Source: Trypanosoma brucei (lineage: Eukaryota). Taken from it: a stretch of 64,000 nt of DNA. This document shows, piece by piece, positions 5,728 to 64,000 of this stretch; position 1 is the stretch's first letter; each line of letters starts with the position of its first letter. The DNA lies in contig CM000208.1 in NCBI GenBank assembly GCA_000002445.1, forward strand, positions 320,001-384,000, given 5' to 3'. Below the pieces are notes generated by a model that was given only the letters and a program-made list of their open reading frames with translations, ran no database searches and was not told where the DNA came from. The translations under genes were made by a program, and so were the position numbers.

Positions 5728-5869
5728 AATAACAAACTTTTCGTGGGCAAAAGCAATCAGATTGCCGTAACTCTACGGGCGCTTTATGTATATATATACT
5801 ACAGTTCTCCCTTTACAAGTTACCAAAATGCAGATAAAGCAAATGGAACTCTTTAAAACTGGAATAACA

Positions 5870-6075
5870 AACTAACAATAAATAACTGCCTTCCCTCCTG
5901 AATCGGCAAAAAACAATTCGAAGGACTGGGGACAAGACAAAGTGAGCAACCAATACGTTCCAAAATAACAATAATTAAAGTAGTTCAAAAATAAAGTTAG
6001 AGAACAAACTGTAAACAATAAGTAGATGCACGTTCCCTCAATCAAGAAAAAAGGAAAACAATGCACAGTAACGTT
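5870..6075 (-). promoter_or_regulatory. Polypyrimidine-rich tract on the transcribed (minus) strand upstream of the AAA ATPase gene. Candidate spliced-leader acceptor and upstream polyadenylation signal region.
   Basis: The plus strand is A/G-rich here, so the minus strand is T/C-rich. This is the arrangement kinetoplastid trans-splicing uses. Confidence 0.35.
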
Positions 6076-7299
6076 AGAAAATAAACAATTCCTCCCTGTG
6101 TCACGAAACTGACCTGCATGGGTAAATCATTACATAGAGGTAACTACTTATTGGACCCGTCCCACTACGTAGTTATGCTGGAGAGGAAAGGATTGGGGCT
6201 CCGATCTCGGGAAACGGCACGTGCTCTATACATCTCTTCCTCCAAATAGATAGAAGTTAATAGAACATGCAAGCAGACAGCAGATGAGCGGAGAACTCAA
6301 AAGAAACTTCAAGCTAAATTGGATACTCGTACAATTTTGCAGCAGAAAACAAAATCCATTGATGTCAAAAAAAAAGCGACTGGAAAATGCTGTAGAGGCA
6401 ACCAACAACTGGCGGTGCTAACAATGAAAACGCCATCCCACATCAAAACATCAGACATCAGCCATATGCTAGAGCGATGAAAAAAGTGAAGACCTATATG
6501 ACCTCAACCCGAGGTATTGAATGAAAACTGTTGTCCGCAGCAGCCGCAACACACAATAAGGGTTTCCCACAAACAAACCCCATGAGACATAATATCTGCA
6601 ACATCAAGACAAAAGAAAAATCGTTCAAACAGCAATTTGAAAACAACGTAGTGAACGCGGGTGAAGGTACTCGTTAATGCGCATAGGGCATGCTGCGGTT
6701 CGATTTTTGAACACAAGCGGGTATAGCCATTCTCAGCCGCCACCACTTGGAGAGGCAAACACTCACGTCCGCAACGAAATCGTCCAACTAACAAGGACTG
6801 TACCTTAAACTGACGATGCCTTCGGCTACGGCAGTGGGGTTGCTGTGAGCACAGTAATCGTTGTTCCCTGCTCGGCAATAGAACCAGCTGATGTCCCCCG
6901 TAACACATTTAGAGTTGCATCGGAAAGAGCGCAGTGCAAAGCCACCGAGGGCTACATGTGAGACCTCCCGCTTCACAAATATCATAGTAATACATGCAGA
7001 AATAGCCATCAGCACCGTCGGTGACGATCAACAACAAGCGGTCTCCGACCTCTTCTCTCCGCACCTTTACGCCGAACATCACTATCGCAGAGATTGTCGG
7101 AGAACACTCTCGAGGTGCTGACCAGAACCACGGCAAACCAAAAAAGTTTCCGTTCATAAAACCCGACCCCTACCCTGCGACCATGATGAACAGTGGGCCC
7201 ATTCACAGCACGTCAGCATTGCACCTAGTTTATAAACACTGATCGCACTTTGAGGACCCTGGGCGACTACACCAAGTTACTTACAACGGCCAATCACAA

Positions 7300-8700
7300 C
7301 AATGTGGAAAGGGACCAGGCATCCGTTAAAAGCGTCTATCCCATCCAACTGTTGGTCACCTCTCGTGACGCCGACGGCGCGGCCCGTCAAGGCGGTGAGA
7401 ACGGTACGGCGTAAGAGGGTGAGCCCCCGTCAAAAAGGAAAACCAAAACCGCCACCAACGCCGCAAAGCCAGATGCAGCGCGGCCCCACGACAAACAATG
7501 CTTCGACCCTTCCCAAATCAAGCCCCGGATATACGAATTTGGGATAACCGGTGGCCGAACGCATACCAAGAGAACCGGGCCGCCCCGTCGACGGGGCGGC
7601 CATCGCGTGGACCCACCCGGCCTCGCACGAAGAAACCGGTTACAACCGGGGGGAGCGGAAGAGTTGATGAGTCAGATCCCGGGGAGTAAGGACGGCGTTC
7701 GTTCCTTTCGGTGGCCGTAACGCCTGGGGTGAAGGCTGTGCTCTGCCTTGTGAAGCAGCAGGGGGCTCGGCAGCCCCTGCGCTTCAGGGAGGCGTTCCTC
7801 TTCGCAGAGGATGCGGTAGTGCACAAGATTCGCGAGGAGCGTAGCTTTCCCCGCACAGGAGCGCCGTGTTCGCCGAAATAGGGCACCCAGCTCGCAAAAG
7901 TGTCCGAACTTTTTTCCAACCGCTCACCCCCCACCCTTAATCCAGGGCTTTCTGGGGGGTGTGGCAACCTCTGCTGTCCAGGAAGGTGACCGAAACATAG
8001 GAGGGAAAGCGCCACCGGGGTGCGTCCGCGAAGGTAATCAGAAGTGTACCTGAAAAATGTGAGGGGGACAAGGGGAAGTCTTGGCCCTTTCGATCCACGC
8101 TTTCTCCGGGAGCGCCGCGAATAGGTGTGTTGTCACTTTCGCGCCACTTCAAGGCCGCCTGAGGCCGGCGGGACCGCCGAGAGCTTTTAAACCGCCTCCG
8201 AGCTCTACTAGGGGGGGGGGGGTGGGCTGACGGTGAGATCGTGGTGCGGGTCGTATATGCCTGTCTTTCTCCCTGAGGAACGCGCTGTGGAGTGTTAACG
8301 AAGGAAATAGGAATACCTCTGTCGCGTATGTGATTGGTATGAAAGGCGGTGGCGAGAACAGCGGGATGAGATGTCATAACAGCTCCTTTCCGCTTCGGAA
8401 ATGCTTTGCTTTTGTCAGTGCTCAACTCCGATACCGCACCCGAGTAATGGCCTTCTCCCCCTTGTAGGGCGGCAAACGCCCAGCTACAGCGCAAGCACTG
8501 AGTACCCTCCCAAAGTACACTCGATCGTACGCCGCTTTCAACTACTTCAAAGGACGGAGGAAGCAGCCCAACCGTTAAGAATACCCCTCAGACCACCACA
8601 TCTGCGCGGTCAGCGACGGGCGGTACACAGATGAAACCGCTATTAGAGTCGGACCAAGCTAAGGGTGCCAAACCATCACGGTGTCAGAGTACCGGCATTG
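7300..8700. other. GC-rich island with no coding signal, inside a 6.7-kb ORF-free interval. It contains a G12 run at 8211-8222.
   Basis: Visibly higher G+C than the flanks. Only short ORFs overlapping in shifting frames on both strands. Confidence 0.4.
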
Positions 8701-11700
8701 CTCACCGTAGGGGTAATGGTGTTTCTAGATTAGTATCGAACAGACGAGTTTCCCATGACGATTTCCATTTTCCGAAGCAGACTCCAAAAACGCCTGCAGG
8801 CATGGGAACTTCTGCAGATGGTGGAAAGGATGCGCTTGAGATTGGGGTCCCAAGAGACTTCGACGCAGCAGTCCACGAGAGGAAAGTGCCAAAAAGGATT
8901 GTTGTGGCACCGTTCTCCACAGCCATTGTGGTTTCCTTGAAGCAGAGAAGTGCCGCGATGTTGGGCACGGAGCGCAGCCGGCGACCACTGCGGCGGCACA
9001 GAAATTCTTTTCACAATTGATTTAATTCATTGCCCCTGCTGTGAAGTCAAAGGCGGGAATTTCCGGAAGTAAACCAGATCATCGCGGTAGAAACTTTATC
9101 CTCGAATTTTCTTTCATCCCGCCGCCCAGCATTTTCCCCGTCAGCTTTGGCATACTGTCAGTTGGCTTCGCGGGTAGAAACAGCGCTGTCCCACTGGCGT
9201 TTTTGGTTGGATTCGGCAACGGCGCGGTGATACTATGCACATGTTTCTTTTGCTCTTTTCCAAACCGCATGAGCAGGTTAGGAGGCTGCGGCAGATGCCG
9301 CAACCCGCTCACCTACAGCTTCTTCGGTTCTCTCCCAAACGATTCTTCTTCCCCAGTTTCCACACCGCTGGAGCACCCCGTAAATGACGGCCCACGGTTA
9401 GATATTTACAATAGTTTTAAACATGCGGTCTGTAATTCCAGAAACTCAATACATTTTTGTGAGTGAATGTGTTGAGTGTTCCTTTGCGAGAGGGCTGTGC
9501 ATATGTGCCCGCCCTTGTATGCATCGGCTGCCTCTTTGGAAGGCGGTAACCACTAACAACCAGATTCCAAGTGGTTAACAGATACGGCGCGAATACCAAC
9601 TTTAGCAGCCTCCAACATTCCCCCCCCCCCCTGATGATGAATGGTTTTGAAGCCCCATATCCTCATTCCCGCACAACTGTTTCATTCGACACCTTCTTCA
9701 TTAGTACAATGAGGTCCACCCCCTTGATGTTTATGCGCCTCATGATTCTTCCGGGCGCCGCGGCTCCGCACCCCTTCCTCCTAGTAACTGCTTGAGCCGC
9801 AATTTGGCAAATAAAATGTGCAATGGCATCATTGAGATATTCTCCTCTCTTCAACAACTTTCTCACGTGTGGCACGGTACTCTGTCGCGCTCCGCCTCCA
9901 AATGTCGGTCAAACGACCACCCTCCACGAATACGATAGCCTCTAAGGCTTTCAACGTACAAATCTCCCTGTCATTCCCAAGTGTTGCATCGCAAGGGATC
10001 CAACTGCAACTGCTTCCAGAGTTCCTCAAAGCTTTCCATATTGTTATCTCAGAGTGTTTAAAGCAGATCACATAAGACGGGGGGAACTCTCCTTTAACTG
10101 ATCTTTATCGTATTAGGGCTCTTCTGTTGGCAACTGAAAATGCCTGTTCCATACATTCGCCAGTTATCAACTTAACATCCTTCTTCTGCGCAACGGTTCC
10201 GGCTTTTCCATGACTCCATTAGAGCCGTTTTATATTTGAGGGTGGGGAAGTAGGTTGATGTGACCTTGGGCTGCTCCTCATCCGAAAGCCCAAGCGGAGT
10301 TACCATGCTTTCTGGAGTTCCTTCTGTTTTCGATTCCTCAACAACGGACGCTCCACCACGAATAGACGCAGACGAGCTGCCGGCACCCATGTTGGAGGGG
10401 GTCGTTTGTAGGCTTTGATAAATGTAGAATGTTGGTAGTCAGCTTCCCCTAATTGTTATGGATGTCTCCCTTGAGGGCGCCAAAAGCCCACCATGTTTTA
10501 ATGAGCCATCCTCAAAAGGGACAACCTTTTGCCATCCGAGGCACCGCCCGTGTTTCGTTGTTCACAGTGAAATGGAAATTTCCCTACCTTGCAGTTGGTA
10601 TATCACTTGAAGGGTGAGAGGCGGTTACGGGCATCGCTTGTGACGAAACGCTTGGCAACGTTTCAAGTGCTGGGGGCGCGGCTTTGCATCATGCTTCTTT
10701 CCTCGTCTCAGCAATGTATGCCGCAGGAACCGCCCCGCATTCTGTGCAATGTCGAAAGTGTGGGGTCGGGTGGTAATGACGTGGTGATGGTTTTTGACGG
10801 TGGAGCCATGGCATTTGCTGGCGAACATAATCCCCATTGCACTGTTAGAAGGTTCACATCAAATATACCAATGAGAGCAGAAACCCTCAAGAGGATGAAG
10901 TGCAGAAAGGCGGCCCGAAAATCTCCGCCCCCGCTCGCTTCTGAAAAGGAGGGTTTTGCCACTCAACAGCAATTGAGCCTCATGTTTTCAGTGGAACGTG
11001 GGGGAGCAGAAAAGGAGGTTTGAAAAGTATCAAAGGCCAGAGCGGTTGGCTCGTAACGGCTGCTGCGGATGCTGAGGTTTTGGAGGGTCTATTATTGAAT
11101 TGTGATGGAGTAACTGAAGGGGTATGAACATTCAAAATGACGCTGGGAGGGTTTGCTAAGCTTTACGATACAAACGGTAAGTGTGGGTGCGACCCGACCG
11201 TTTGGACTACTTTCACGGAGCGTACATCATGCTAGGGGAGTGATTTTTTTTTTTTTTTACGAAAGGGTTTGTTTTTCTCGATCACGATCCAAGGTTATTT
11301 TTCATACCTCCCCATGCATTTCCCCAATTCGAAGCTTGGCATTGCAATTTCCTGGGTCTATTTTTGGGACTGGAAGTGGCTGTTTCCTTGTGTTGTGAAA
11401 AGGATGGGGGACGCGACGTATCAAGTGGTAGTCAGTGACCCCCCCCCCCAAAGCCCTCTTTTAGTGTCAACGGCAGAAAAACAAACTATAACTTCATGGA
11501 CGTTAGCAACATTGGCAATGCGTTAGGCTAAAAAGAAGTTGCCGTTACGCCTCATTGATGTAAAAACACAATGAAACGGTTCTGTTTGCGTACGTGTGTG
11601 TGTGCCCGCTTGTGTTTGGTAGGCGATTTTTTTTTTTTGTAGAGTGATCGTCAGACCACTGACCGGTGCGTGCCATTGGACAGCTTCATAGCCGTTATTT

Positions 11701-12413
11701 CAATTGGAAGCGCGCCTTGCTTTATAGCGCAAAGACTACAAATAGCGGTAGAGCCGCTGCCGCGGTGCTCGCCATCATGCGCATAGGCGATTGGAATGTG
11801 TAATGTCAGTCATTCCACCGATCCAGAGTTCCCTTTCCCCTTCTTTTACACTCCCTTCGGGCCCAAGTTTCCTTCCAACCGAACAAACCGGTGTTTGTGT
11901 TGCGTTATTGGTGCCCCTTATCGGTGTTGAGGTTTTTTTTTTCTCCGACTGACCTAGCTGGGGCAGCAACTGTTGTTTTACTTCAAGGGGCCGTTTGCTG
12001 CGCTGCCCCGTCCTCACACTAACGAAAAAAAAACGGGTTTTGTGGCAAGAATGGAAATAGAAGAGGGCACCTCTCAAAACTGGCGGAACCAGCACAAAGT
12101 GAAACGCATGGTGTTAAACTACGCACGCACGCCAAACAGCAGGAGATAAATGCGAAACGACCTTCACATATTGCGCGGATATTTATGAGGGCGCGTGCCT
12201 GGTAAATGGTTTCCGCAGACAACTTACACACTCGGCAGCAACTTAGCTTTCACTCTTAGTAAGGTGAAATGGGTCCTCTCCAACCTCCCCTTTACCCCTT
12301 CGCGCATACGCTCGAAAACAGTTCCGTCTCCCGCTAGCGCCACAGAAACGATGTCCCCCTAGCGACAACCACGCGCATTCTCCACGACCACTGTTTTTTC
12401 AACCACATCTTTT

Positions 12414-45935: not shown

Positions 45936-46640
45936 TTACAATTTGCTCGGGTACCGTTTCGCATACTCCGGTTTTAAAACAAAGACGTGACGGTAGTTCC
46001 TGTACCTGTCATTCACCTCGAAGCCGTAACCAACCACGTATCTAGTTGGTGCAGTCAGGCAAACAAATTCGGGCTTAAAGTCCACAACGCGACCACCGGG
46101 CTTGTCCACAAGTACGCACACCTTCAAACTGGCAGGTCGGTACTCCCGGCGGATCTTCTCCACCAAAAGCTTCATTGTACGCCCCGTGTCGGCAATGTCT
46201 TCCATAATAAGTACATGTTTCCCCGTTAATTCAGTGAAGCGCAGGTTATCCAGCACCTGCACGGTGCCACTGCTTTTCGTGGTTCCCCTGTATGAAGTAA
46301 TGCGTATAAAGTCCACAACGTTAGGTAGCCCACAGTCTCCAAGGTAACGAACCATGTCTGCCGTGAAAATATAACTGCCCTTCAGGACAGAAATAATAAT
46401 TAGTGGATTTTCATCGGTGATTGGGGCCAATGCGCTATTACCCTTATTGTGGGTATCGCGGTGCTTAAGTGTCTTGTAAGCGTTGGCAAGCGTCTGTGCC
46501 ATTTCCTTCATGCTTCGGTGAATTGTGCTCTCCGTGGCGACAACACTTTCCGCCATGGGATATGATCTGCCATCAACCGTAACATTTCCGTCAGCATCCC
46601 TGCCAACAAAGTTCGGTTTGAGAGGATGGCCCGAGTGCAT
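45936..46640 (-). CDS. Hypoxanthine-guanine(-xanthine) phosphoribosyltransferase paralog carrying a C-terminal PTS1 (SKL), so probably glycosomal. The true start is probably an internal Met.
   Basis: 234-aa ORF with the PRPP-binding motif VLIMEDIADTGRTM. It is about 70% similar to the downstream HGPRT through the core and ends in ...RYPSKL. Confidence 0.85.
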   Translation of the reverse strand: MHSGHPLKPNFVGRDADGNVTVDGRSYPMAESVVATESTIHRSMKEMAQTLANAYKTLKHRDTHNKGNSALAPITDENPLIIISVLKGSYIFTADMVRYLGDCGLPNVVDFIRITSYRGTTKSSGTVQVLDNLRFTELTGKHVLIMEDIADTGRTMKLLVEKIRREYRPASLKVCVLVDKPGGRVVDFKPEFVCLTAPTRYVVGYGFEVNDRYRNYRHVFVLKPEYAKRYPSKL

Positions 46641-47843
46641 TATCGAAATTTACTGCGGTGTGCTGAATAGGTACAATTTTAGTCTGATTCAAGTATCGCA
46701 ACTAAAGTGAGTACCTACTTGTTTCGCACCTTCTGTTATAAACAATACGCCGGTCTTCCAGTTTTTCTTTCTTGAAACAAAAACTTACCTTGTAGAGAAC
46801 TGTTCGTCTCCAGTTCGCCTTCCTTATACACAAAGACGGGTAAACTCTTCTCAATAGTAAATCGGGTTAACAACGCCCCTTCACGTCATAAATGAGAAAC
46901 AAAAAAAAAGATGGTAAGACACAAATAAAACCGACAACATGGTGAGCAAATAAAGAAAGACAATAATTCTCAGCACCGTGACCAATTATAATACTGTTCA
47001 AGAGGTCATATTATTGAAAAATATGTGGGCTGTGATGCAGTAAAGGTAACTACAGCACTCTCCCAACAAGAGTTTCTAAAGACTACATCGCCATGAACCC
47101 GTAATTGCTCACAACAGCAGAGGAACACATATATATTATCTCAAAAATAAGGAAATATCAAAATATGGCGAAAAAACATTTAAAACCCTCTAGAAAATTG
47201 TTTAGAAAAAGATAGAGAGAGAAAGGGAGCTATCATCGTCGAGCACACAAAGCAACGACAACACTTCACAAACGATGGTGGTATATTGCCTCGGAGAGAT
47301 GCAAACGGAGCTTGAAGTAGGAATTATATGCACCGCTGGAATTAGTCTCACCCACTCGTAAGCATCCTCATGACTCATCCATCCTCAACTCCTCAAGTGA
47401 GGCACAACACCACCGACCAGGACTCACAGGGCAAAAAAGCAAGTGATTGACAAGCAACTGTTACCAGTACACCACCATCAACCACCGAGGTCGGCACACA
47501 TTACAGGAACAACGGTAATGTTATCCATCGCTTCGTTCATCGCTACGCTCCATGTGTTACACGGGAAAGAACTCTCCTCTCTTCTCATACCGGTTTCTTT
47601 ATTAGCTATTCTTCGCATCCTTTTCCCATTCATTCATCCCTTGTGCTCACATATCTTCCCCAAGTATGATCATTGTGAAACAAGCGTAGGGGAAATAACA
47701 AAACAAGCACAAGGCACAAGAGCTACCTGCTTACACAGGTAACATTAAATAGGGAGGAAGCATGGGAAAGAACAAATTTACGTACGGGTAATTGCACCAC
47801 AGAACCCCGTTGCCTCCCACCATCAGCACATCAGCGACCGCAT

Positions 47844-48503
<660 letters not shown>

Positions 48504-57002: not shown

Positions 57003-60000
57003 TCATCTGGCATCCGTGCTTTCATCCCCTCCCCCACTAACACGTTCTTTAGGAGTAGCAGCTGATGAGAAATTCAGTACGGCTTCCGGATTTGTACTGG
57101 AGTTCGGTGAAACCTCCGCATTCGCAGGGTCCCGGGATCCCGACCCCGTGCTGTCAGTGCTAGGCTCCCGCACCACCCGCGAGAGGCGACCGAGTCGGAG
57201 TAACAAGTTATGCATTATATTGTTCAACAATAATTCCCTCTGATCCACCGGCGCCAAGGCTTTCGAGCCAAGTTGTGCGTTCCTTGCTTCTTGCACGACA
57301 TGTACAATAGCGGTCTTCATCTCGCTGTACAACGACTCCACCTGAGCCTCTCTTTCCTCTAGGAGCAGAGATTTCTGTGCCACAATGTTTCGCAGCCGTG
57401 CAATCGACTTCTGGCTCGCTGACCCTTGCGTTTTTTGGGAGTCGCAACATCCGGCAGGTGCTGAAGTTAGGGAACAAGTTTCTCGCGTACCACATTCTCT
57501 CTGTGGAGTGTACGGCACACTCGGGGATTTTTGTACACTACATTCATCGCTGCAGCTCCGCAGAAATTTGAGTCCCGTTTCATGCAGATACCCCCGCTCC
57601 TGTGCAAGGAGCTCCTGGTATTCGCGCAGCTGAAGCCGGACAGCCCTGATCTGCTCGTGGTTGCTTGTCCTCTCCACCTGCAACATACTTATCGTGTCCC
57701 GCATGGCGTTTTGCTGAGCCTCCGCCTCTTCTAAGGTGTGGCGCCACTTGCTGAGCTCCTCCCGTGCACCATTCAGCGTTTCCTGGGCAGCTTGTATTTC
57801 ACTTTCATAGGACTCCCGCTGCCACTGTATCTCATTTTGCAGCCGTTCCTTCTGTTGATTACACCTCTCGAGATTTTGCTTGATCCGTTCGGTCTCTTGG
57901 GCGGCACCCACTTGCTCCCGAACCAACTGCTCCCTATCGGCAACCAGTCCGTCGTGAGCCTCCTGCAGTTGCTTGACCTCAAGCTGTAGCGCCTCCACTT
58001 GCTCATTGAGCTGCTGAACGCGGCGGTTGTGCATTTGTTCTGCATTTTGAGTTGTATCGGCCGCTTGACGAAGGCGCTCCTTCAGTTCGTCGCAACACCC
58101 CTGAAGTTCACAATTCTTCCGTCGTACGTGATCTACCTCTTCTTGTAGAGCTGCTTTACGTGGTTCGAGAGCAGCAATACGCATTTCGGCAGCCCGCAGA
58201 GCTGCGGCGGCTTCCTCGACCTGAAGGGTGCTCGAAGATTCCAACTCACATAACTTTCCATTTAAGCGTTGGGCATCACTTTCTTGCTGTGTTGCTCGCA
58301 TACGCAACCGCTCCAACTCGGTTTCAGCAACGGCCAACTGCGCCTTCAACGAATCCAATTGGGCCTGTTGCTCTTTGCAGGATTCTCCCAACTTCGTGTT
58401 GGCTTCCCGTAGCTCCTCCACAGTTGCAGTGAGGGCGTCTGCCTGTCGACGGGAGGCTTCTTCAGCTGTACGGTTTCTCTGGGTCAACAACTGTACTTCC
58501 TGCGTGGCATCAAGCAGCTGAGACTCCAGGGAGTCCCGTTCCGTTTCGGCACGCTCAAGACGGGGAATAACGCGATCAAGACTTGACTTGGTTGACCGCA
58601 GCTGTTTCTCCAAGTCTTCGCGCGAACACTTGCACTGGTCAACCTCCTCCAATGCTGCTGCGAGTTTCTGCTCCGTTAGTTCGAGTAGTTCACGAGAGGT
58701 GTGCGTCTTTTCCCTCAGCGCCTCCTGAAGCCGAACAACCTCCCGTCGCTGTTCGTCCTCAACATCTGCTGCTGTTTTCTTCAGTTCGGAAAATAGGTGC
58801 AGGACGTTTGCGTTCTCAGTTTTCACGAGTTCCATCTTGTGTAAAGAGTTTGCATACTCGACCTTGACCACCTCCATCTCATGCTGTGTGGCGTCAAGTT
58901 TTTCATGTAACTTTCTTATAACCTTGCTGTGCTCCTCCTTATTGGAACAAAGTTCAGACTCAACTCTTTCTGAAGAGGCTTTGAATGTAGCAACTTCCTG
59001 CTGAAGTTCAGTAATTTGACGTAGCAGACCTTGTCGCTCCACCTCCGCACCCTCAACAACGGCCATGAACTCTTCGCACTGCCGCTCACCCTCGATCATA
59101 GCATCACTGGCTGCTCGCTCAATAACATCGCAACGACTAAGCAATTTACGTTGGAAGTTTACGTGGTGCCGTACAAGGTATTCATGCGCGTCCAAAACAG
59201 CCCTAAACAGATATTCCACAACGAGAGGTATTGTCAGCACCTTCTCGGCAAAGAGGTCTTCGACAACGTTATGCTTCAGCGTGGTATGATCCAGCTCCGC
59301 AGTGTGTACCTCTTTCTCAGAGCCTCCATTCTCGCTGTGCAAACGTGACTGTTCTTCCCTTTGCAGTTCAACACGATTTCTCGTCACATCCGGCAACGTT
59401 TGACAATCCTCAACGCGCAACTCGGCTTCATTACTATCATCAAGTGGAACCACGCCATCATCTACCTGGCAACTCTTGTTGCATTTAGACTGCTTGCGGC
59501 AGATCACCAAGTTACCCATGCCGATATCATCGGGAATGTCCCCACTAAAATTACAGTACGATAAACCATTTAAGTTCCCATAATCAACCCTTTCACCATT
59601 TTCTCGATCCTCGGTCATATCAACAAAAGACCGACACACAACGCCGATTGCTTCCGGGGAATCAGTTTGCACCCGCGAGGACACCTTTTCAGAACCCTTC
59701 AATACATCGACACAGTGACTACCATTTCCGACAACCTCCCTATGAGAAATGCAGCATTCCGCTTCTTTAGCACCGCAGTCAGCGGTCTCTAGATTTATAC
59801 AAGGTAAACAACTATCTGCACCCAAAAGCGATCTAACACTACCAACACTACTTGAAGTAGAAGCAACAAAAACAGTAACACCACAATATCCACGAGTTCC
59901 ACCTGCCTCCTGTGTCACATTAGCTAATTCTACTTGCTGCCTTTCTTCCAGTTCACGAAGTTCTTCCTTTAACTGATCGTTACAAGCTTGGAGAGCATTA

Positions 60001-63000
60001 AGGCGTTCAAGAATGGCATCATCCGACTCGTTACCTGTGCGGCACGTTTCAAGTTCTTCAAGAAACTTCGCCTCCTGCTCAGCCTTGTATTCCTCCAATT
60101 TCTGTCTGAGAAGTTCATCATGCTCAGCGATACGGTCAGCTGCTTCCTGTGTCACATTAGCTAATTCTACTTGCTGCCTTTCTTCCAGTTCACGAAGTTC
60201 TTCCTTTAACTGATCGTTACAAGCTTGGAGAGTATTAAGGCGTTCAAGAATGGCATCATCCGATTCGTTACCTGTGCGGCACGCTTCAAGTTCTTCAAGA
60301 AACTTCGCCTCCTGCTCAGCCTTGTATTCCTCCAATTTCTGTCTGAGAAGTTCATCATGCTCAGCGATACGGTCAGCTGCTTCCTGTGTCACATTAGCTA
60401 ATTCTACTTGCTGCCTTTCTTCCAGTTCACGAAGTTCTTCCTTTAACTGATCGTTACAAGCTTGGAGAGTATTAAGGCGTTCAAGAATGGCATCATCCGA
60501 CTCGTTACCTGTGCGGCACGCTTCAAGTTCTTCAAGAAACTTCGCCTCCTGCTCAGCCTTGTATTCCTCCAATTTCTGTCTGAGAAGTTCATCATGCTCA
60601 GCGATACGGTCAGCTGCTTCCTGTGTCACATTAGCTAATTCTACTTGCTGCCTTTCTTCCAGTTCACGAAGTTCTTCCTTTAACTGATCGTTACAAGCTT
60701 GGAGAGTATTAAGGCGTTCAAGAATGGCATCATCCGATTCGTTACCTGTGCGGCACGCTTCAAGTTCTTCAAGAAACTTCGCCTCCTGCTCAGCCTTGTA
60801 TTCCTCCAATTTCTGTCTGAGAAGTTCATCATGCTCAGCGATACGGTCAGCTGCTTCCTGTGTCACATTAGCTAATTCTACTTGCTGCCTTTCTTCCAGT
60901 TCACGAAGTTCTTCCTTTAACTGATCGTTACAAGCTTGGAGAGCATTAAGGCGTTCAAGAATGGCATCATCCGATTCGTTACCTGTGCGGCACGCTTCAA
61001 GTTCTTCAAGAAACTTCGCCTCCTGCTCAGCCTTGTATTCCTCCAATTTCTGTCTGAGAAGTTCATCATGCTCAGCGATACGGTCAGCTGCTTCCTGTGT
61101 CACATTAGCTAATTCTACTTGCTGCCTTTCTTCCAGTTCACGAAGTTCTTCCTTTAACTGATCGTTACAAGCTTGGAGAGTATTAAGGCGTTCAAGAATG
61201 GCATCATCCGATTCGTTACCTGTGCGGCACGCTTCAAGTTCTTCAAGAAACTTCGCCTCCTGCTCAGCCTTGTATTCCTCCAATTTCTGTCTGAGAAGTT
61301 CATCATGCTCAGCGATACGGTCAGCTGCTTCCTGTGTCACATTAGCTAATTCTACTTGCTGCCTTTCTTCCAGTTCACGAAGTTCTTCCTTTAACTGATC
61401 GTTACAAGCTTGGAGAGTATTAAGGCGTTCAAGAATGGCATCATCCGACTCGTTACCTGTGCGGCACGTTTCAAGTTCTTCAAGAAACTTCGCCTCCTGC
61501 TCAGCCTTGTATTCCTCCAATTTCTGTCTGAGAAGTTCATCATGCTCAGCGATACGGTCAGCTGCTTCCTGTGTCACATTAGCTAATTCTACTTGCTGCC
61601 TTTCTTCCAGTTCACGAAGTTCTTCCTTTAACTGATCGTTACAAGCTTGGAGAGTATTAAGGCGTTCAAGAATGGCATCATCCGATTCGTTACCTGTGCG
61701 GCACGCTTCAAGTTCTTCAAGAAACTTCGCCTCCTGCTCAGCCTTGTATTCCTCCAATTTCTGTCTGAGAAGTTCATCATGCTCAGCGATACGGTCAGCT
61801 GCTTCCTGTGTCACATTAGCTAATTCTACTTGCTGCCTTTCTTCCAGTTCACGAAGTTCTTCCTTTAACTGATCGTTACAAGCTTGGAGAGCATTAAGGC
61901 GTTCAAGAATGGCATCATCCGACTCGTTACCTGTGCGGCACGCTTCAAGTTCTTCAAGAAACTTCGCCTCCTGCTCAGCCTTGTATTCCTCCAATTTCTG
62001 TCTGAGAAGTTCATCATGCTCAGCGATACGGTCAGCTGCTTCCTGTGTCACATTAGCTAATTCTACTTGCTGCCTTTCTTCCAGTTCACGAAGTTCTTCC
62101 TTTAACTGATCGTTACAAGCTTGGAGAGCATTAAGGCGTTCAAGAATGGCATCATCCGATTCGTTACCTGTGCGGCACGCTTCAAGTTCTTCAAGAAACT
62201 TCGCCTCCTGCTCAGCCTTGTATTCCTCCAATTTCTGTCTGAGAAGTTCATCATGCTCAGCGATACGGTCAGCTGCTTCCTGTGTCACATTAGCTAATTC
62301 TACTTGCTGCCTTTCTTCCAGTTCACGAAGTTCTTCCTTTAACTGATCGTTACAAGCTTGGAGAGTATTAAGGCGTTCAAGAATGGCATCATCCGACTCG
62401 TTACCTGTGCGGCACGCTTCAAGTTCTTCAAGAAACTTCGCCTCCTGCTCAGCCTTGTATTCCTCCAATTTCTGTCTGAGAAGTTCATCATGCTCAGCGA
62501 TACGGTCAGCTGCTTCCTGTGTCACATTAGCTAATTCTACTTGCTGCCTTTCTTCCAGTTCACGAAGTTCTTCCTTTAACTGATCGTTACAAGCTTGGAG
62601 AGTATTAAGGCGTTCAAGAATGGCATCATCCGACTCGTTACCTGTGCGGCACGTTTCAAGTTCTTCAAGAAACTTCGCCTCCTGCTCAGCCTTGTATTCC
62701 TCCAATTTCTGTCTGAGAAGTTCATCATGCTCAGCGATACGGTCAGCTGCTTCCTGTGTCACATTAGCTAATTCTACTTGCTGCCTTTCTTCCAGTTCAC
62801 GAAGTTCTTCCTTTAACTGATCGTTACAAGCTTGGAGAGTATTAAGGCGTTCAAGAATGGCATCATCCGATTCGTTACCTGTGCGGCACGCTTCAAGTTC
62901 TTCAAGAAACTTCGCCTCCTGCTCAGCCTTGTATTCCTCCAATTTCTGTCTGAGAAGTTCATCATGCTCAGCGATACGGTCAGCTGCTTCCTGTGTCACA

Positions 63001-64000
63001 TTAGCTAATTCTACTTGCTGCCTTTCTTCCAGTTCACGAAGTTCTTCCTTTAACTGATCGTTACAAGCTTGGAGAGTATTAAGGCGTTCAAGAATGGCAT
63101 CATCCGACTCGTTACCTGTGCGGCACGCTTCAAGTTCTTCAAGAAACTTCGCCTCCTGCTCAGCCTTGTATTCCTCCAATTTCTGTCTGAGAAGTTCATC
63201 GTGCTCAGCGATACGGTCAGCTGCTTCCTGTGTCACATTAGCTAATTCTACTTGCTGCCTTTCTTCCAGTTCACGAAGTTCTTCCTTTAACTGATCGTTA
63301 CAAGCTTGGAGAGCATTAAGGCGTTCAAGAATGGCATCATCCGATTCGTTACCTGTGCGGCACGCTTCAAGTTCTTCAAGAAACTTCGCCTCCTGCTCAG
63401 CCTTGTATTCCTCCAATTTCTGTCTGAGAAGTTCATCATGCTCAGCGATACGGTCAGCTGCTTCCTGTGTCACATTAGCTAATTCTACTTGCTGCCTTTC
63501 TTCCAGTTCACGAAGTTCTTCCTTTAACTGATCGTTACAAGCTTGGAGAGTATTAAGGCGTTCAAGAATGGCATCATCCGATTCGTTACCTGTGCGGCAC
63601 GCTTCAAGTTCTTCAAGAAACTTCGCCTCCTGCTCAGCCTTGTATTCCTCCAATTTCTGTCTGAGAAGTTCATCATGCTCAGCGATACGGTCAGCTGCTT
63701 CCTGTGTCACATTAGCTAATTCTACTTGCTGCCTTTCTTCCAGTTCACGAAGTTCTTCCTTTAACTGATCGTTACAAGCTTGGAGAGCATTAAGGCGTTC
63801 AAGAATGGCATCATCCGATTCGTTACCTGTGCGGCACGCTTCAAGTTCTTCAAGAAACTTCGCCTCCTGCTCAGCCTTGTATTCCTCCAATTTCTGTCTG
63901 AGAAGTTCATCATGCTCAGCGATACGGTCAGCTGCTTCCTGTGTCACATTAGCTAATTCTACTTGCTGCCTTTCTTCCAGTTCACGAAGTTCTTCCTTTA
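57003..64000 (-). CDS. Giant coiled-coil protein, partial (N-terminus beyond the window). At least 17 tandem 79-aa repeats are followed by a ~950-aa non-repetitive coiled-coil C-terminal region.
   Basis: The ORF is open from 57003 to the window edge. Repeat unit: ANVTQEAADRIAEHDELLRQKLEEYKAEQEAKFLEELEACRTGNESDDAILERLNALQACNDQLKEELRELEERQQVEL. The C-terminal region is E/Q/L/R-rich heptad-like sequence. Confidence 0.75.
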   Translation of the reverse strand, partial: KEELRELEERQQVELANVTQEAADRIAEHDELLRQKLEEYKAEQEAKFLEELEACRTGNESDDAILERLNALQACNDQLKEELRELEERQQVELANVTQEAADRIAEHDELLRQKLEEYKAEQEAKFLEELEACRTGNESDDAILERLNTLQACNDQLKEELRELEERQQVELANVTQEAADRIAEHDELLRQKLEEYKAEQEAKFLEELEACRTGNESDDAILERLNALQACNDQLKEELRELEERQQVELANVTQEAADRIAEHDELLRQKLEEYKAEQEAKFLEELEACRTGNESDDAILERLNTLQACNDQLKEELRELEERQQVELANVTQEAADRIAEHDELLRQKLEEYKAEQEAKFLEELEACRTGNESDDAILERLNTLQACNDQLKEELRELEERQQVELANVTQEAADRIAEHDELLRQKLEEYKAEQEAKFLEELETCRTGNESDDAILERLNTLQACNDQLKEELRELEERQQVELANVTQEAADRIAEHDELLRQKLEEYKAEQEAKFLEELEACRTGNESDDAILERLNTLQACNDQLKEELRELEERQQVELANVTQEAADRIAEHDELLRQKLEEYKAEQEAKFLEELEACRTGNESDDAILERLNALQACNDQLKEELRELEERQQVELANVTQEAADRIAEHDELLRQKLEEYKAEQEAKFLEELEACRTGNESDDAILERLNALQACNDQLKEELRELEERQQVELANVTQEAADRIAEHDELLRQKLEEYKAEQEAKFLEELEACRTGNESDDAILERLNTLQACNDQLKEELRELEERQQVELANVTQEAADRIAEHDELLRQKLEEYKAEQEAKFLEELETCRTGNESDDAILERLNTLQACNDQLKEELRELEERQQVELANVTQEAADRIAEHDELLRQKLEEYKAEQEAKFLEELEACRTGNESDDAILERLNTLQACNDQLKEELRELEERQQVELANVTQEAADRIAEHDELLRQKLEEYKAEQEAKFLEELEACRTGNESDDAILERLNALQACNDQLKEELRELEERQQVELANVTQEAADRIAEHDELLRQKLEEYKAEQEAKFLEELEACRTGNESDDAILERLNTLQACNDQLKEELRELEERQQVELANVTQEAADRIAEHDELLRQKLEEYKAEQEAKFLEELEACRTGNESDDAILERLNTLQACNDQLKEELRELEERQQVELANVTQEAADRIAEHDELLRQKLEEYKAEQEAKFLEELEACRTGNESDDAILERLNTLQACNDQLKEELRELEERQQVELANVTQEAADRIAEHDELLRQKLEEYKAEQEAKFLEELETCRTGNESDDAILERLNALQACNDQLKEELRELEERQQVELANVTQEAGGTRGYCGVTVFVASTSSSVGSVRSLLGADSCLPCINLETADCGAKEAECCISHREVVGNGSHCVDVLKGSEKVSSRVQTDSPEAIGVVCRSFVDMTEDRENGERVDYGNLNGLSYCNFSGDIPDDIGMGNLVICRKQSKCNKSCQVDDGVVPLDDSNEAELRVEDCQTLPDVTRNRVELQREEQSRLHSENGGSEKEVHTAELDHTTLKHNVVEDLFAEKVLTIPLVVEYLFRAVLDAHEYLVRHHVNFQRKLLSRCDVIERAASDAMIEGERQCEEFMAVVEGAEVERQGLLRQITELQQEVATFKASSERVESELCSNKEEHSKVIRKLHEKLDATQHEMEVVKVEYANSLHKMELVKTENANVLHLFSELKKTAADVEDEQRREVVRLQEALREKTHTSRELLELTEQKLAAALEEVDQCKCSREDLEKQLRSTKSSLDRVIPRLERAETERDSLESQLLDATQEVQLLTQRNRTAEEASRRQADALTATVEELREANTKLGESCKEQQAQLDSLKAQLAVAETELERLRMRATQQESDAQRLNGKLCELESSSTLQVEEAAAALRAAEMRIAALEPRKAALQEEVDHVRRKNCELQGCCDELKERLRQAADTTQNAEQMHNRRVQQLNEQVEALQLEVKQLQEAHDGLVADREQLVREQVGAAQETERIKQNLERCNQQKERLQNEIQWQRESYESEIQAAQETLNGAREELSKWRHTLEEAEAQQNAMRDTISMLQVERTSNHEQIRAVRLQLREYQELLAQERGYLHETGLKFLRSCSDECSVQKSPSVPYTPQRECGTRETCSLTSAPAGCCDSQKTQGSASQKSIARLRNIVAQKSLLLEEREAQVESLYSEMKTAIVHVVQEARNAQLGSKALAPVDQRELLLNNIMHNLLLRLGRLSRVVREPSTDSTGSGSRDPANAEVSPNSSTNPEAVLNFSSAATPKERVSGGGDESTDAR
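59903..64000. repeat. Tandem array of 237-bp units (period 237 = 79 codons), at least 17.3 copies, near-identical, continuing past the window end
   Basis: Plus-strand shadow ORFs recur every 237 nt from 60013 to 63568. The units differ at only about three nucleotide positions (gagcattaag/gagtattaag; cacgcttcaag/cacgtttcaag; ccgactcg/ccgattcg). Confidence 0.95.

What the first reader, a model, noticed from the sequence alone, without database searches (positions are those of the whole stretch)
59903..64000. Higher-order periodicity of variant sites inside the 237-bp array
The variant that yields RHV rather than RHA in the plus-strand shadow ORFs (the same site as ETCRTG versus EACRTG in the real minus-strand protein) recurs at units starting 60013, 61435 and 62620. 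That is every 6 and then 5 units. The A/T variant at LNA/TLQ shows its own pattern. This suggests the array expands by duplication of multi-unit blocks of about 1.2-1.4 kb rather than single units. It also means the copy number in any short-read assembly is probably collapsed.
Basis: seen in the sequence. Interest (0 to 1): 0.55.

Follow-up and report, generated by a model that had tools for sequence, protein, structure and literature searches.

The report
Variant pattern in CAAP1 coding repeat
The 237-bp array is the known in-frame repeat region of the Trypanosoma brucei cytoskeleton-to-Golgi tether gene CAAP1; the variant positions are exactly as reported, but their "every 5-6 units" spacing is no more regular than chance, so this is an ordinary tandem repeat, not a demonstrated higher-order repeat.

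Summary
The facts are right. A 237-bp array (17.3 units in the window, 99% identical) has three recurrent variant sites. The RHV/ETCRTG variant sits in the units whose shadow ORFs start at 60013, 61435 and 62620.

The minus-strand protein is identical over 2331 aa to T. brucei TREU927 Tb927.10.1450 (CAAP1, 2872 aa, 18 units of 79 aa). Only 0.7 unit lies outside the window, and it lacks that variant.

The periodicity is not established.
- Three marks among 17-18 units are near-equally spaced 25% of the time by chance.
- No lag is significant across the three sites.
- The best candidate duplication is 61088-62272 versus 62273-63457 (3 differences in 1185 bp). It gives P = 0.03-0.39 depending on the test.

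The interspersion does show that pure one-unit slippage cannot explain the map. Copying over more than one unit, gene conversion, or assembly mixing is needed.

Other genomes show strain-specific fixed differences, assembled copy numbers of 12 and 9, and divergent edge units. That is classical concerted evolution.

TREU927 chromosome 10 was shotgun-assembled from both homologues, so unit order and number are uncertain. A short-read T. equiperdum contig breaks 124 bp inside the array, which supports the warning about short-read assemblies. Low interest.

The parts
59903..64000 (-). In-frame tandem array of 237-bp (79-codon) units in CAAP1. The window holds 17 full units plus 69 bp of the 18th, which is the most N-terminal unit.
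   Evidence: TRF period 237, 17.3 copies, 99% matches. Unit table. Translation into 79-aa units. The full protein has 18 units.
57003..59902 (-). C-terminal non-repeat part of CAAP1 (Tb927.10.1450), about 965 aa, with the stop codon at 57003-57005.
   Evidence: The ORF ends at 57003. The 2331 aa read from the window equal the C-terminus of XP_822403.1/Q38C95. Q38C95 = Tb927.10.1450 = CAAP1.
60047..62654 (-). Span holding the three copies of the reported variant, at 60047, 61469 and 62654. Plus-phase 145 C>T equals coding-phase 93 G>A, GCG>ACG, Ala>Thr (EACRTG>ETCRTG). It occurs in plus-order units 1, 7 and 12.
60027..63108 (-). Span of the synonymous variant: plus-phase 125 T>C, coding-phase 113 A>G, GAA>GAG. 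It lies at 60027, 60501, 61449, 61923, 62397, 62634 and 63108. All three Ala>Thr units carry it.
   Evidence: Linkage P = 0.051.
59996..63788 (-). Span of the LNA/LNT variant: plus-phase 94 T/C, coding-phase 144 A/G, ACT/GCT, Thr/Ala. The C state is at 59996, 60944, 61892, 62129, 63314 and 63788. This minority state (G on the coding strand) is the one carried by every unit of the gambiense and equiperdum arrays, so it is probably ancestral.
59903..60139 (-). Terminal (C-terminal-most) unit. It is a hybrid of derived 93A+113G with the presumed ancestral 144G and 233G (59907). 233G survives in no other TREU927 unit.
   Evidence: OVI has 144A+233G in the same unit.
61088..63457 (-). The only candidate multi-unit duplication: two adjacent 5-unit (1185-bp) blocks, 61088-62272 and 62273-63457. 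They differ at 3 positions, against a mean of 7-8 for other registers.
   Evidence: Not significant: P = 0.39 (5-unit) and 0.19 (4-unit) for the best block pair. P = 0.03-0.19 for gapped self-alignment.

Best explanation
The array is the central, in-frame 79-aa repeat region of the known T. brucei gene CAAP1 (Tb927.10.1450). [quoted passage not shown]

The array evolves like any coding minisatellite. Out-of-register homologous recombination and gene conversion between units, and between the two homologues, keep units nearly identical within a genome, change copy number, and leave edge units behind.

In TREU927 three young point variants form a nested series. With x = the presumed ancestral 144G unit, c = the array consensus (144A), y = 113G and z = 93A+113G, the series is x > c > y > z. 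Two recombinant types also occur: v = 113G+144G and t = all three. These unit types are caught part-way through homogenisation and lie interspersed.

The 6-then-5 spacing of one variant is a chance feature of that interspersion, not a higher-order repeat.

Shown here: the anatomy, the gene identity, the lack of significant periodicity, the strain-specific fixed differences and the divergent edge units. Inferred: the recombination mechanism.
For: Identity:
- The window translation equals the last 2331 aa of XP_822403.1/Q38C95.
- Q38C95 is Tb927.10.1450, CAAP1. Its function is described in PMC11633155.

No period:
- Searches give P between 0.03 and 0.9. None is robust to the choice of test.

Concerted evolution:
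- TREU927 units differ from each other at about 1.3 sites (99.3% identical).
- All of them carry 173G, and all but the last carry 233A.
- All gambiense units carry 144G, 173A, 209G and 233G, and all but one carry 129T. All equiperdum units carry 69A, 144G, 173A and 233G.
- Flanking divergence is 1.6-1.8%.

Copy number and edges:
- Assembled copy numbers are 18, 12 and 9.
- Edge units carry private or retained states: TREU927 terminal 233G, and the first and last gambiense units.

Exchange inside units:
- All four allele combinations exist for sites 113/144 and 93/144.

Age of the array:
- An orthologue from another trypanosome has a 59-aa array at the same place. It shares only AERIAEHDELLRQKLEE with the 79-aa unit, so the array is old and its unit turns over.
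Against: - Lag 5 does show the fewest differences between 5-unit blocks: a mean of 4.6 against 7-8.
- The best gapped self-alignment is at lag 5, then lag 6.
- Neighbouring units are never identical (P = 0.026), and consensus and variant units alternate over 9 units (P = 0.017). Both tests are post hoc. A plain random interspersion does not predict either.
- The recombination process itself was not observed.
- All three complete arrays come from assemblies with known weaknesses in repeats.
Confidence: 0.6

Rival explanations
1. The array grew at least once by tandem duplication of a block of about 5 units (about 1.2 kb). That block was an unequal exchange with a 5-unit offset, giving an incipient higher-order repeat: coding-order units u4-8, u9-13 and, with one extra unit, u14-18.
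For: - Blocks 62273-63457 and 61088-62272 differ at 3 of 1185 positions.
- The unit-type strings are x y c z y / x v c z c / x c y c t.
- Each Ala>Thr unit is preceded by a consensus unit and then by a 113G unit.
- The best gapped self-alignment runs at lag 5, then lag 6, with P = 0.03-0.06 under five of nine scorings.
- One-unit steps alone cannot produce the interspersion.
Against: - P rises to 0.15-0.19 with a stricter mismatch penalty. For the best pair of 4- or 5-unit blocks it is 0.19 and 0.39.
- Ungapped lag 5 gives P = 0.15, and lag 6 is below expectation.
- The third block matches only with a gap and 8-9 differences.
- The singleton at 63201 is not shared between the two blocks.
- The gambiense and equiperdum arrays show no block structure.
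- Gene conversion explains the same map.
Confidence: 0.17
2. Assembly artefact. The six unit types are real sequences. Their order and number in the TREU927 reference are a product of assembling about 600-800-bp Sanger reads from two homologues into one consensus. On this reading the pattern belongs to neither chromosome.
For: - PMC2854126 states that TREU927 chromosomes 1 and 9-11 were shotgun-sequenced and hold data from both homologues (pi 0.0022). [quoted passage not shown]
- Four 2-unit words recur while every 3-unit word is unique (unit-type string; noted). Placement therefore depends on reads spanning at least about 530 bp of clean sequence.
- OVI, 99.8% identical in the flank, has the other allele at site 144 in the flank-anchored terminal unit.
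Against: - All 3-unit words being unique means the array was in principle resolvable with Sanger reads and read pairs.
- The variants are transitions recurring at three sites, not random errors.
- The nested series of haplotypes and the linkage of 93A with 113G look biological.
- No reads were available to test this.
Confidence: 0.3
3. Independent recurrent mutation or sequencing error at three hot sites, with no copying of variants between units.
For: All changes are transitions.
Against: - The same base change would have to arise more than ten extra times at just 3 of 237 sites, while the remaining 234 sites collected two singletons. The order of magnitude is (3/237)^10, about 1e-19.
- 93A is always on a 113G background.
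- Site 144 is also variable in OVI.
Confidence: 0.01

Closest known systems
Coding minisatellites and tandem-repeat protein genes under concerted evolution. This is the classical unequal crossing-over and gene conversion model, as read from minisatellite variant-repeat maps. Tandem gene arrays of T. brucei are the local precedent (PMC1855330, seen by title and abstract only).
   Same: Head-to-tail units are nearly identical within a genome. There are strain-specific fixed differences, assembled copy number differs between strains, variant units are interspersed, and edge units are divergent.
   Different: Nothing essential differs. Here the unit is an in-frame 79-codon module inside one gene, not a whole gene or a non-coding minisatellite.
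Higher-order repeats of satellite DNA, such as alpha-satellite HORs.
   Same: There is a weak dip in differences at lag 5.
   Different: The dip is not significant. At most two clean block copies exist. There are only three informative sites. No such structure is seen in the other two assembled arrays.
CAAP1 (Tb927.10.1450), centrin arm-associated protein 1 of T. brucei.
   Same: It is this gene: 2331 of 2331 aa are identical to the TREU927 protein. [quoted passage not shown]
   Different: A term search of that paper found no passage discussing the repeat array, its variant units or its assembled copy-number differences.

Membership tests
Higher-order repeat (HOR) array | Units one HOR period apart are significantly more similar than neighbouring units. 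| tested here: not met
   Lag 5 identity is 4/12, P = 0.15. Lag 6 is 1/11. The maximum over lags gives P = 0.71. The block-level dip at lag 5 is not significant.
Higher-order repeat (HOR) array | Three or more tandem copies of the same multi-unit string. | tested here: not met
   Two 5-unit blocks differ at 3 sites. The third differs at 8-9 sites unless a one-unit gap is allowed. The array has only 18 units in all.
Higher-order repeat (HOR) array | The same multi-unit structure is present in related genomes. | tested here: not met
   The DAL972 array (12 units) and the T. equiperdum GCA_003543875.1 array (9 units) are nearly homogeneous. Caveat: the latter, if it is the IVM-t1 draft, was built from very few PacBio reads and polished with short reads.
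Tandem array under concerted evolution (unequal exchange / gene conversion) | Units are more alike within a genome than between genomes, with genome-specific fixed differences. | tested here: met
   173G and 233A are fixed or nearly fixed in TREU927. In DAL972, 209G is in all units and 129T in all but one. 69A is fixed in the equiperdum assembly. Within-array identity is about 99.3%, against 97.7-98.2% for array-to-array alignments between genomes.
Tandem array under concerted evolution (unequal exchange / gene conversion) | Copy number differs between strains. | tested here: inconclusive
   The assemblies give 18, 12 and 9 units. All three assemblies are unreliable for repeat number.
Tandem array under concerted evolution (unequal exchange / gene conversion) | Edge units escape homogenisation. 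| tested here: met
   The TREU927 terminal unit alone keeps 233G. The first two and the last DAL972 units carry private changes.
CAAP1 / Tb927.10.1450 | Sequence identity to the named protein and conserved gene neighbourhood. | tested here: met
   There is an exact 2331-aa match. The same neighbours are present in L001-L003: Pkinase upstream; DUF4833, M24 peptidase and two phosphoribosyltransferases downstream.

The most novel reading that the evidence does not exclude
The CAAP1 array really contains an incipient super-repeat of about 5 units (1185 bp, 395 aa). It would be produced by a preferred multi-unit recombination register. [quoted passage not shown] The assemblies give 18, 12 and 9 units. 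Each unit would add about 12 nm if it is a continuous coiled coil; that figure is my own estimate from 0.15 nm per residue.
Probability: 0.12. Interest if true: 0.3.

Novelty: already known. Interest (0 to 1): 0.12.

Why it matters
It matters little for biology at large. The gene, its protein and its repeat region are already in public annotation. Variant interspersion in a tandem array is textbook concerted evolution.

The practical value is a caution. The length and unit order of CAAP1 in the T. brucei reference are uncertain: 2872 aa in TREU927, 2398 aa in DAL972, and truncated 871-aa 'plectin' models in two T. equiperdum assemblies. Anyone using CAAP1 size, RNAi or tagging designs, or repeat number as a strain marker should first size the array with long reads.

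If strain differences in unit number are real, they would alter the length of a structural tether. That could be tested by imaging.

Tried and rejected
- One search was a frame error.
- The first homology search, with the C-terminal region plus one unit, was swamped by coiled-coil words. It returned only one distant orthologue (P0001) and not the T. brucei proteins. An exact cluster look-up solved the identification instead.
- Look-ups of the TREU927 protein and of P0001 found no contig on record. The DNA of the 18th unit and the orthologue's array therefore could not be read.
- The look-up of the 871-aa C-terminal product found only OVI.
- Rfam found nothing in the window, and TRF found no other sizeable array.
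- Pfam found nothing for the ORFs at 6.5-12.1 kb, and only a sub-threshold DUF4164 hit for the CAAP1 C-terminus.
- The literature search on collapsed repeats in TREU927 gave nothing specific. The useful statements came from the gambiense genome paper.

Models rejected:
- Recurrent mutation or sequencing error, because of the distribution of variants.
- Pure one-unit slippage, because it cannot intersperse variants.
- A 3-unit period, suggested by 18, 12 and 9 all being multiples of 3. Lag 3 shows the most differences.
- A 2-unit period. Lag 2 is not significant, although consensus and variant units alternate over 9 units.
- Simple collapse of identical neighbours as the cause of 'no identical neighbours'. 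Reads of about 3 units would still preserve runs of two.

No structure prediction was run. It would not bear on the periodicity question.

Full report
**What is at the coordinates**

Tandem Repeats Finder reports one array at 59903-64000: period 237, 17.3 copies, 99% matches and no indels. It runs off the end of the window.

Cutting the array into 17 full units gives a consensus from which units differ at only five positions.
- Three sites recur. In plus-strand phase they are 94 T/C (6 units), 125 T/C (7 units) and 145 C/T (3 units).
- Two are singletons, at 59907 and 63201.

The real reading frame is on the minus strand. It is an ORF with its stop at 57003, made of 79-aa units followed by about 965 aa of non-repeat sequence. 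The plus-strand 66-aa and 58-aa ORFs and the out-of-frame minus-strand 50-aa ORFs recur once per unit. They are mechanical shadows of the repeat.

**What gene this is**

The window's neighbour genes are found, with identical products, on chromosome-scale records of T. brucei gambiense DAL972 (FN554973.1) and a T. brucei equiperdum assembly (GCA_003543875.1). They are also on a 50-kb contig of T. equiperdum OVI.

All long ORFs in the window are on the minus strand, as expected for a kinetoplastid polycistron.

An exact cluster look-up gave four members of one 90% cluster:
- DAL972, 2398 aa;
- TREU927 XP_822403.1/Q38C95, 2872 aa;
- two 871-aa 'plectin' models from the T. equiperdum assemblies.

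The 2331 aa readable in the window are identical to the C-terminal 2331 aa of the TREU927 protein. The flank is 99.8% identical to OVI and 98.2-98.4% identical to the other two. The window is therefore, almost certainly, TREU927 chromosome 10.

Q38C95 is Tb927.10.1450, CAAP1 or centrin arm-associated protein 1. It is a bilobe/hook-complex protein. [quoted passage not shown]

The full protein has exactly 18 units. The unit outside the window has EACRTG and LNT, the consensus state at both protein-visible sites.

**Check of the observation**

- 145T lies at 60047, 61469 and 62654, in units 1, 7 and 12.
- The shadow ORFs starting at 60013, 61435 and 62620 read VRHV, and the other 14 read VRHA.
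- On the coding strand this is GCG>ACG, Ala>Thr.
- Site 125 is synonymous (GAA>GAG).
- Site 94 is the Thr/Ala of LNT/LNA.

**Is it more than chance?**

No test that I could devise is robust.

| Test | Result |
|---|---|
| Three marks among 17 or 18 units with spacings equal within one unit | 26% or 25% of all placements; 18% with one mark fixed on the end unit |
| Identity of unit types at lag 5 | 4/12, P = 0.15 |
| Identity of unit types at lag 6 | 1/11, below expectation |
| Maximum over lags 1-9 | P = 0.71 (unit types), 0.91 (sites) |
| Rarity-weighted gapped self-alignment | P = 0.03-0.06 under five scorings, 0.15-0.19 under the others |
| Closest pair of non-overlapping blocks | P = 0.19 (4 units), 0.39 (5 units) |

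Coding-order units u4-9 align with u9-14, and after a one-unit gap u10-12 align with u16-18.

At the DNA level the 5-unit blocks 61088-62272 and 62273-63457 differ at 3 of 1185 positions. The mean for other registers is 7-8.

With 17 units and three informative sites, the power is simply too low. This assembly holds no further units to look at.

**What the variant map does show**

I polarised the sites with the other two arrays. On the coding strand, 144G, 113A, 93G and 233G are the states found in the gambiense and equiperdum arrays.

I name the unit types as follows:
- x = 144G only, the presumed ancestral type;
- c = the array consensus (144A);
- y = 113G;
- z = 93A+113G;
- v = 113G+144G;
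- t = all three.

The types form a nested series x > c > y > z, plus two recombinant types, v and t. All four allele combinations occur for sites 113/144 and for 93/144. Exchange has therefore occurred inside units between sites 31 bp apart.

In coding order u2-u18 the map is: x c x y c z y x v c z c x c y c t.

The three variants occur in 3, 6 and 5 separate runs. Independent recurrence at these sites, while 234 other sites collected two singletons, is of the order of 1e-19. One-unit duplication cannot intersperse variants either. So variants were carried across more than one unit by one of the following:
- unequal exchange with a multi-unit offset;
- gene conversion within the array or between homologues;
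- the assembler.

The terminal unit is a hybrid. It has derived 93A+113G on its 5' side and the presumed ancestral 144G+233G next to the unique flank. 233G survives nowhere else in the array. This is what unequal exchange with a breakpoint inside a unit predicts for an edge unit.

**Other genomes**

| Genome | Units | Features |
|---|---|---|
| DAL972 | 12 | 209G in all units, 129T in all but one; private changes only in the first two and the last unit |
| T. equiperdum GCA_003543875.1 | 9 | Identical units, fixed for 69A; one unit with two 1-bp deletions, which explains the truncated 871-aa model |
| TREU927 (window) | 18 | Fixed for 173G; fixed for 233A except in the last unit |

This is the signature of concerted evolution.

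The OVI contig ends at unit position 114 of the terminal unit, 124 bp into the array. There it has 144A where TREU927 has 144G.

An orthologue from another trypanosome (P0001, source unknown) has a 59-aa array at the same position. It shares only AERIAEHDELLRQKLEE with the 79-aa unit. The array is therefore old, and its unit turns over.

**How far the assemblies can be trusted**

The gambiense genome paper makes two relevant statements (PMC2854126).
- TREU927 chromosomes 1 and 9-11 were produced by shotgun sequencing and contain data from both homologues (pi = 0.0022).
[quoted passage not shown] Such polishing could homogenise units. That GCA_003543875.1 is this strain rests on my memory plus the organism name.

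In the TREU927 map every 3-unit word is unique, but four 2-unit words recur. Correct placement therefore needed reads with at least about 530 clean bases.

The order and number of units in the window are thus plausible but unverified.

**Mechanism and rivals**

Best explanation (0.6): this is ordinary concerted evolution of a coding tandem array. Three young variants are caught interspersed, and the 6/5 spacing is chance.

Rivals:
- A unit order and number that belong to neither homologue (0.3). This is not exclusive of the others.
- Recurrent mutation or sequencing error (0.01).

Two post hoc oddities remain unexplained.
- No two neighbouring units are identical (P = 0.026).
- Consensus and variant units alternate over nine units (P = 0.017).

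**Verdict**

- The periodicity is not shown.
- The block-duplication interpretation is possible but unsupported.
- The short-read warning is supported.
- The feature is a known gene's known repeat region behaving in a known way.

Noticed in passing
window 59903-64000: No two neighbouring units are identical: 0 of 16 pairs, permutation P = 0.026. Consensus and non-consensus units alternate strictly over 9 units (P = 0.017). Both tests are post hoc, and neither random interspersion nor simple assembly collapse explains the result.
   Followed up: partly
window 59903-60139; L003 1-124: The terminal unit is a hybrid: derived 93A+113G joined to the presumed ancestral 144G+233G. T. equiperdum OVI is 99.8% identical in the flank and has 144A+233G in the same unit. 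Site 144 therefore flips between very close genomes, or one assembly is wrong there.
   Followed up: partly
L001 4269-4503; L003/L007/L011 409-3024: Both T. equiperdum assemblies annotate CAAP1 as an 871-aa 'plectin'. In GCA_003543875.1 one unit carries two 1-bp deletions, probably consensus errors. In OVI the contig ends inside the array. These look like annotation artefacts, not real truncations.
   Followed up: yes
P0001 residues 272-640: A CAAP1 orthologue from an unidentified trypanosome (50% identical in the C-terminal region) has 59-aa tandem units at the same place. They share only the motif AERIAEHDELLRQKLEE with the 79-aa T. brucei unit. No contig was on record for it.
   Followed up: partly
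L001 3558-5688; L002 2827-5670; window array: The assembled copy numbers 18, 12 and 9 are all multiples of three. Lag 3 nevertheless shows the most differences in TREU927, so there is no sign of a 3-unit period. It is probably coincidence or assembly arbitrariness.
   Followed up: partly
window 5728-12413: A stretch of about 6.7 kb inside the minus-strand polycistron has no ORF of 200 aa or more. Its seven 100-185-aa ORFs have no Pfam hit, and there is no Rfam match. AT skew is strong, +0.235 at 6001-8000. Its nature is unknown.
   Followed up: partly
window 45936-48476: Two adjacent phosphoribosyltransferase genes (234 and 210 aa, PF00156) lie on the minus strand. From my own knowledge these are likely the tandem HGPRT pair of T. 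brucei chromosome 10. They are unrelated to the finding.
   Followed up: no
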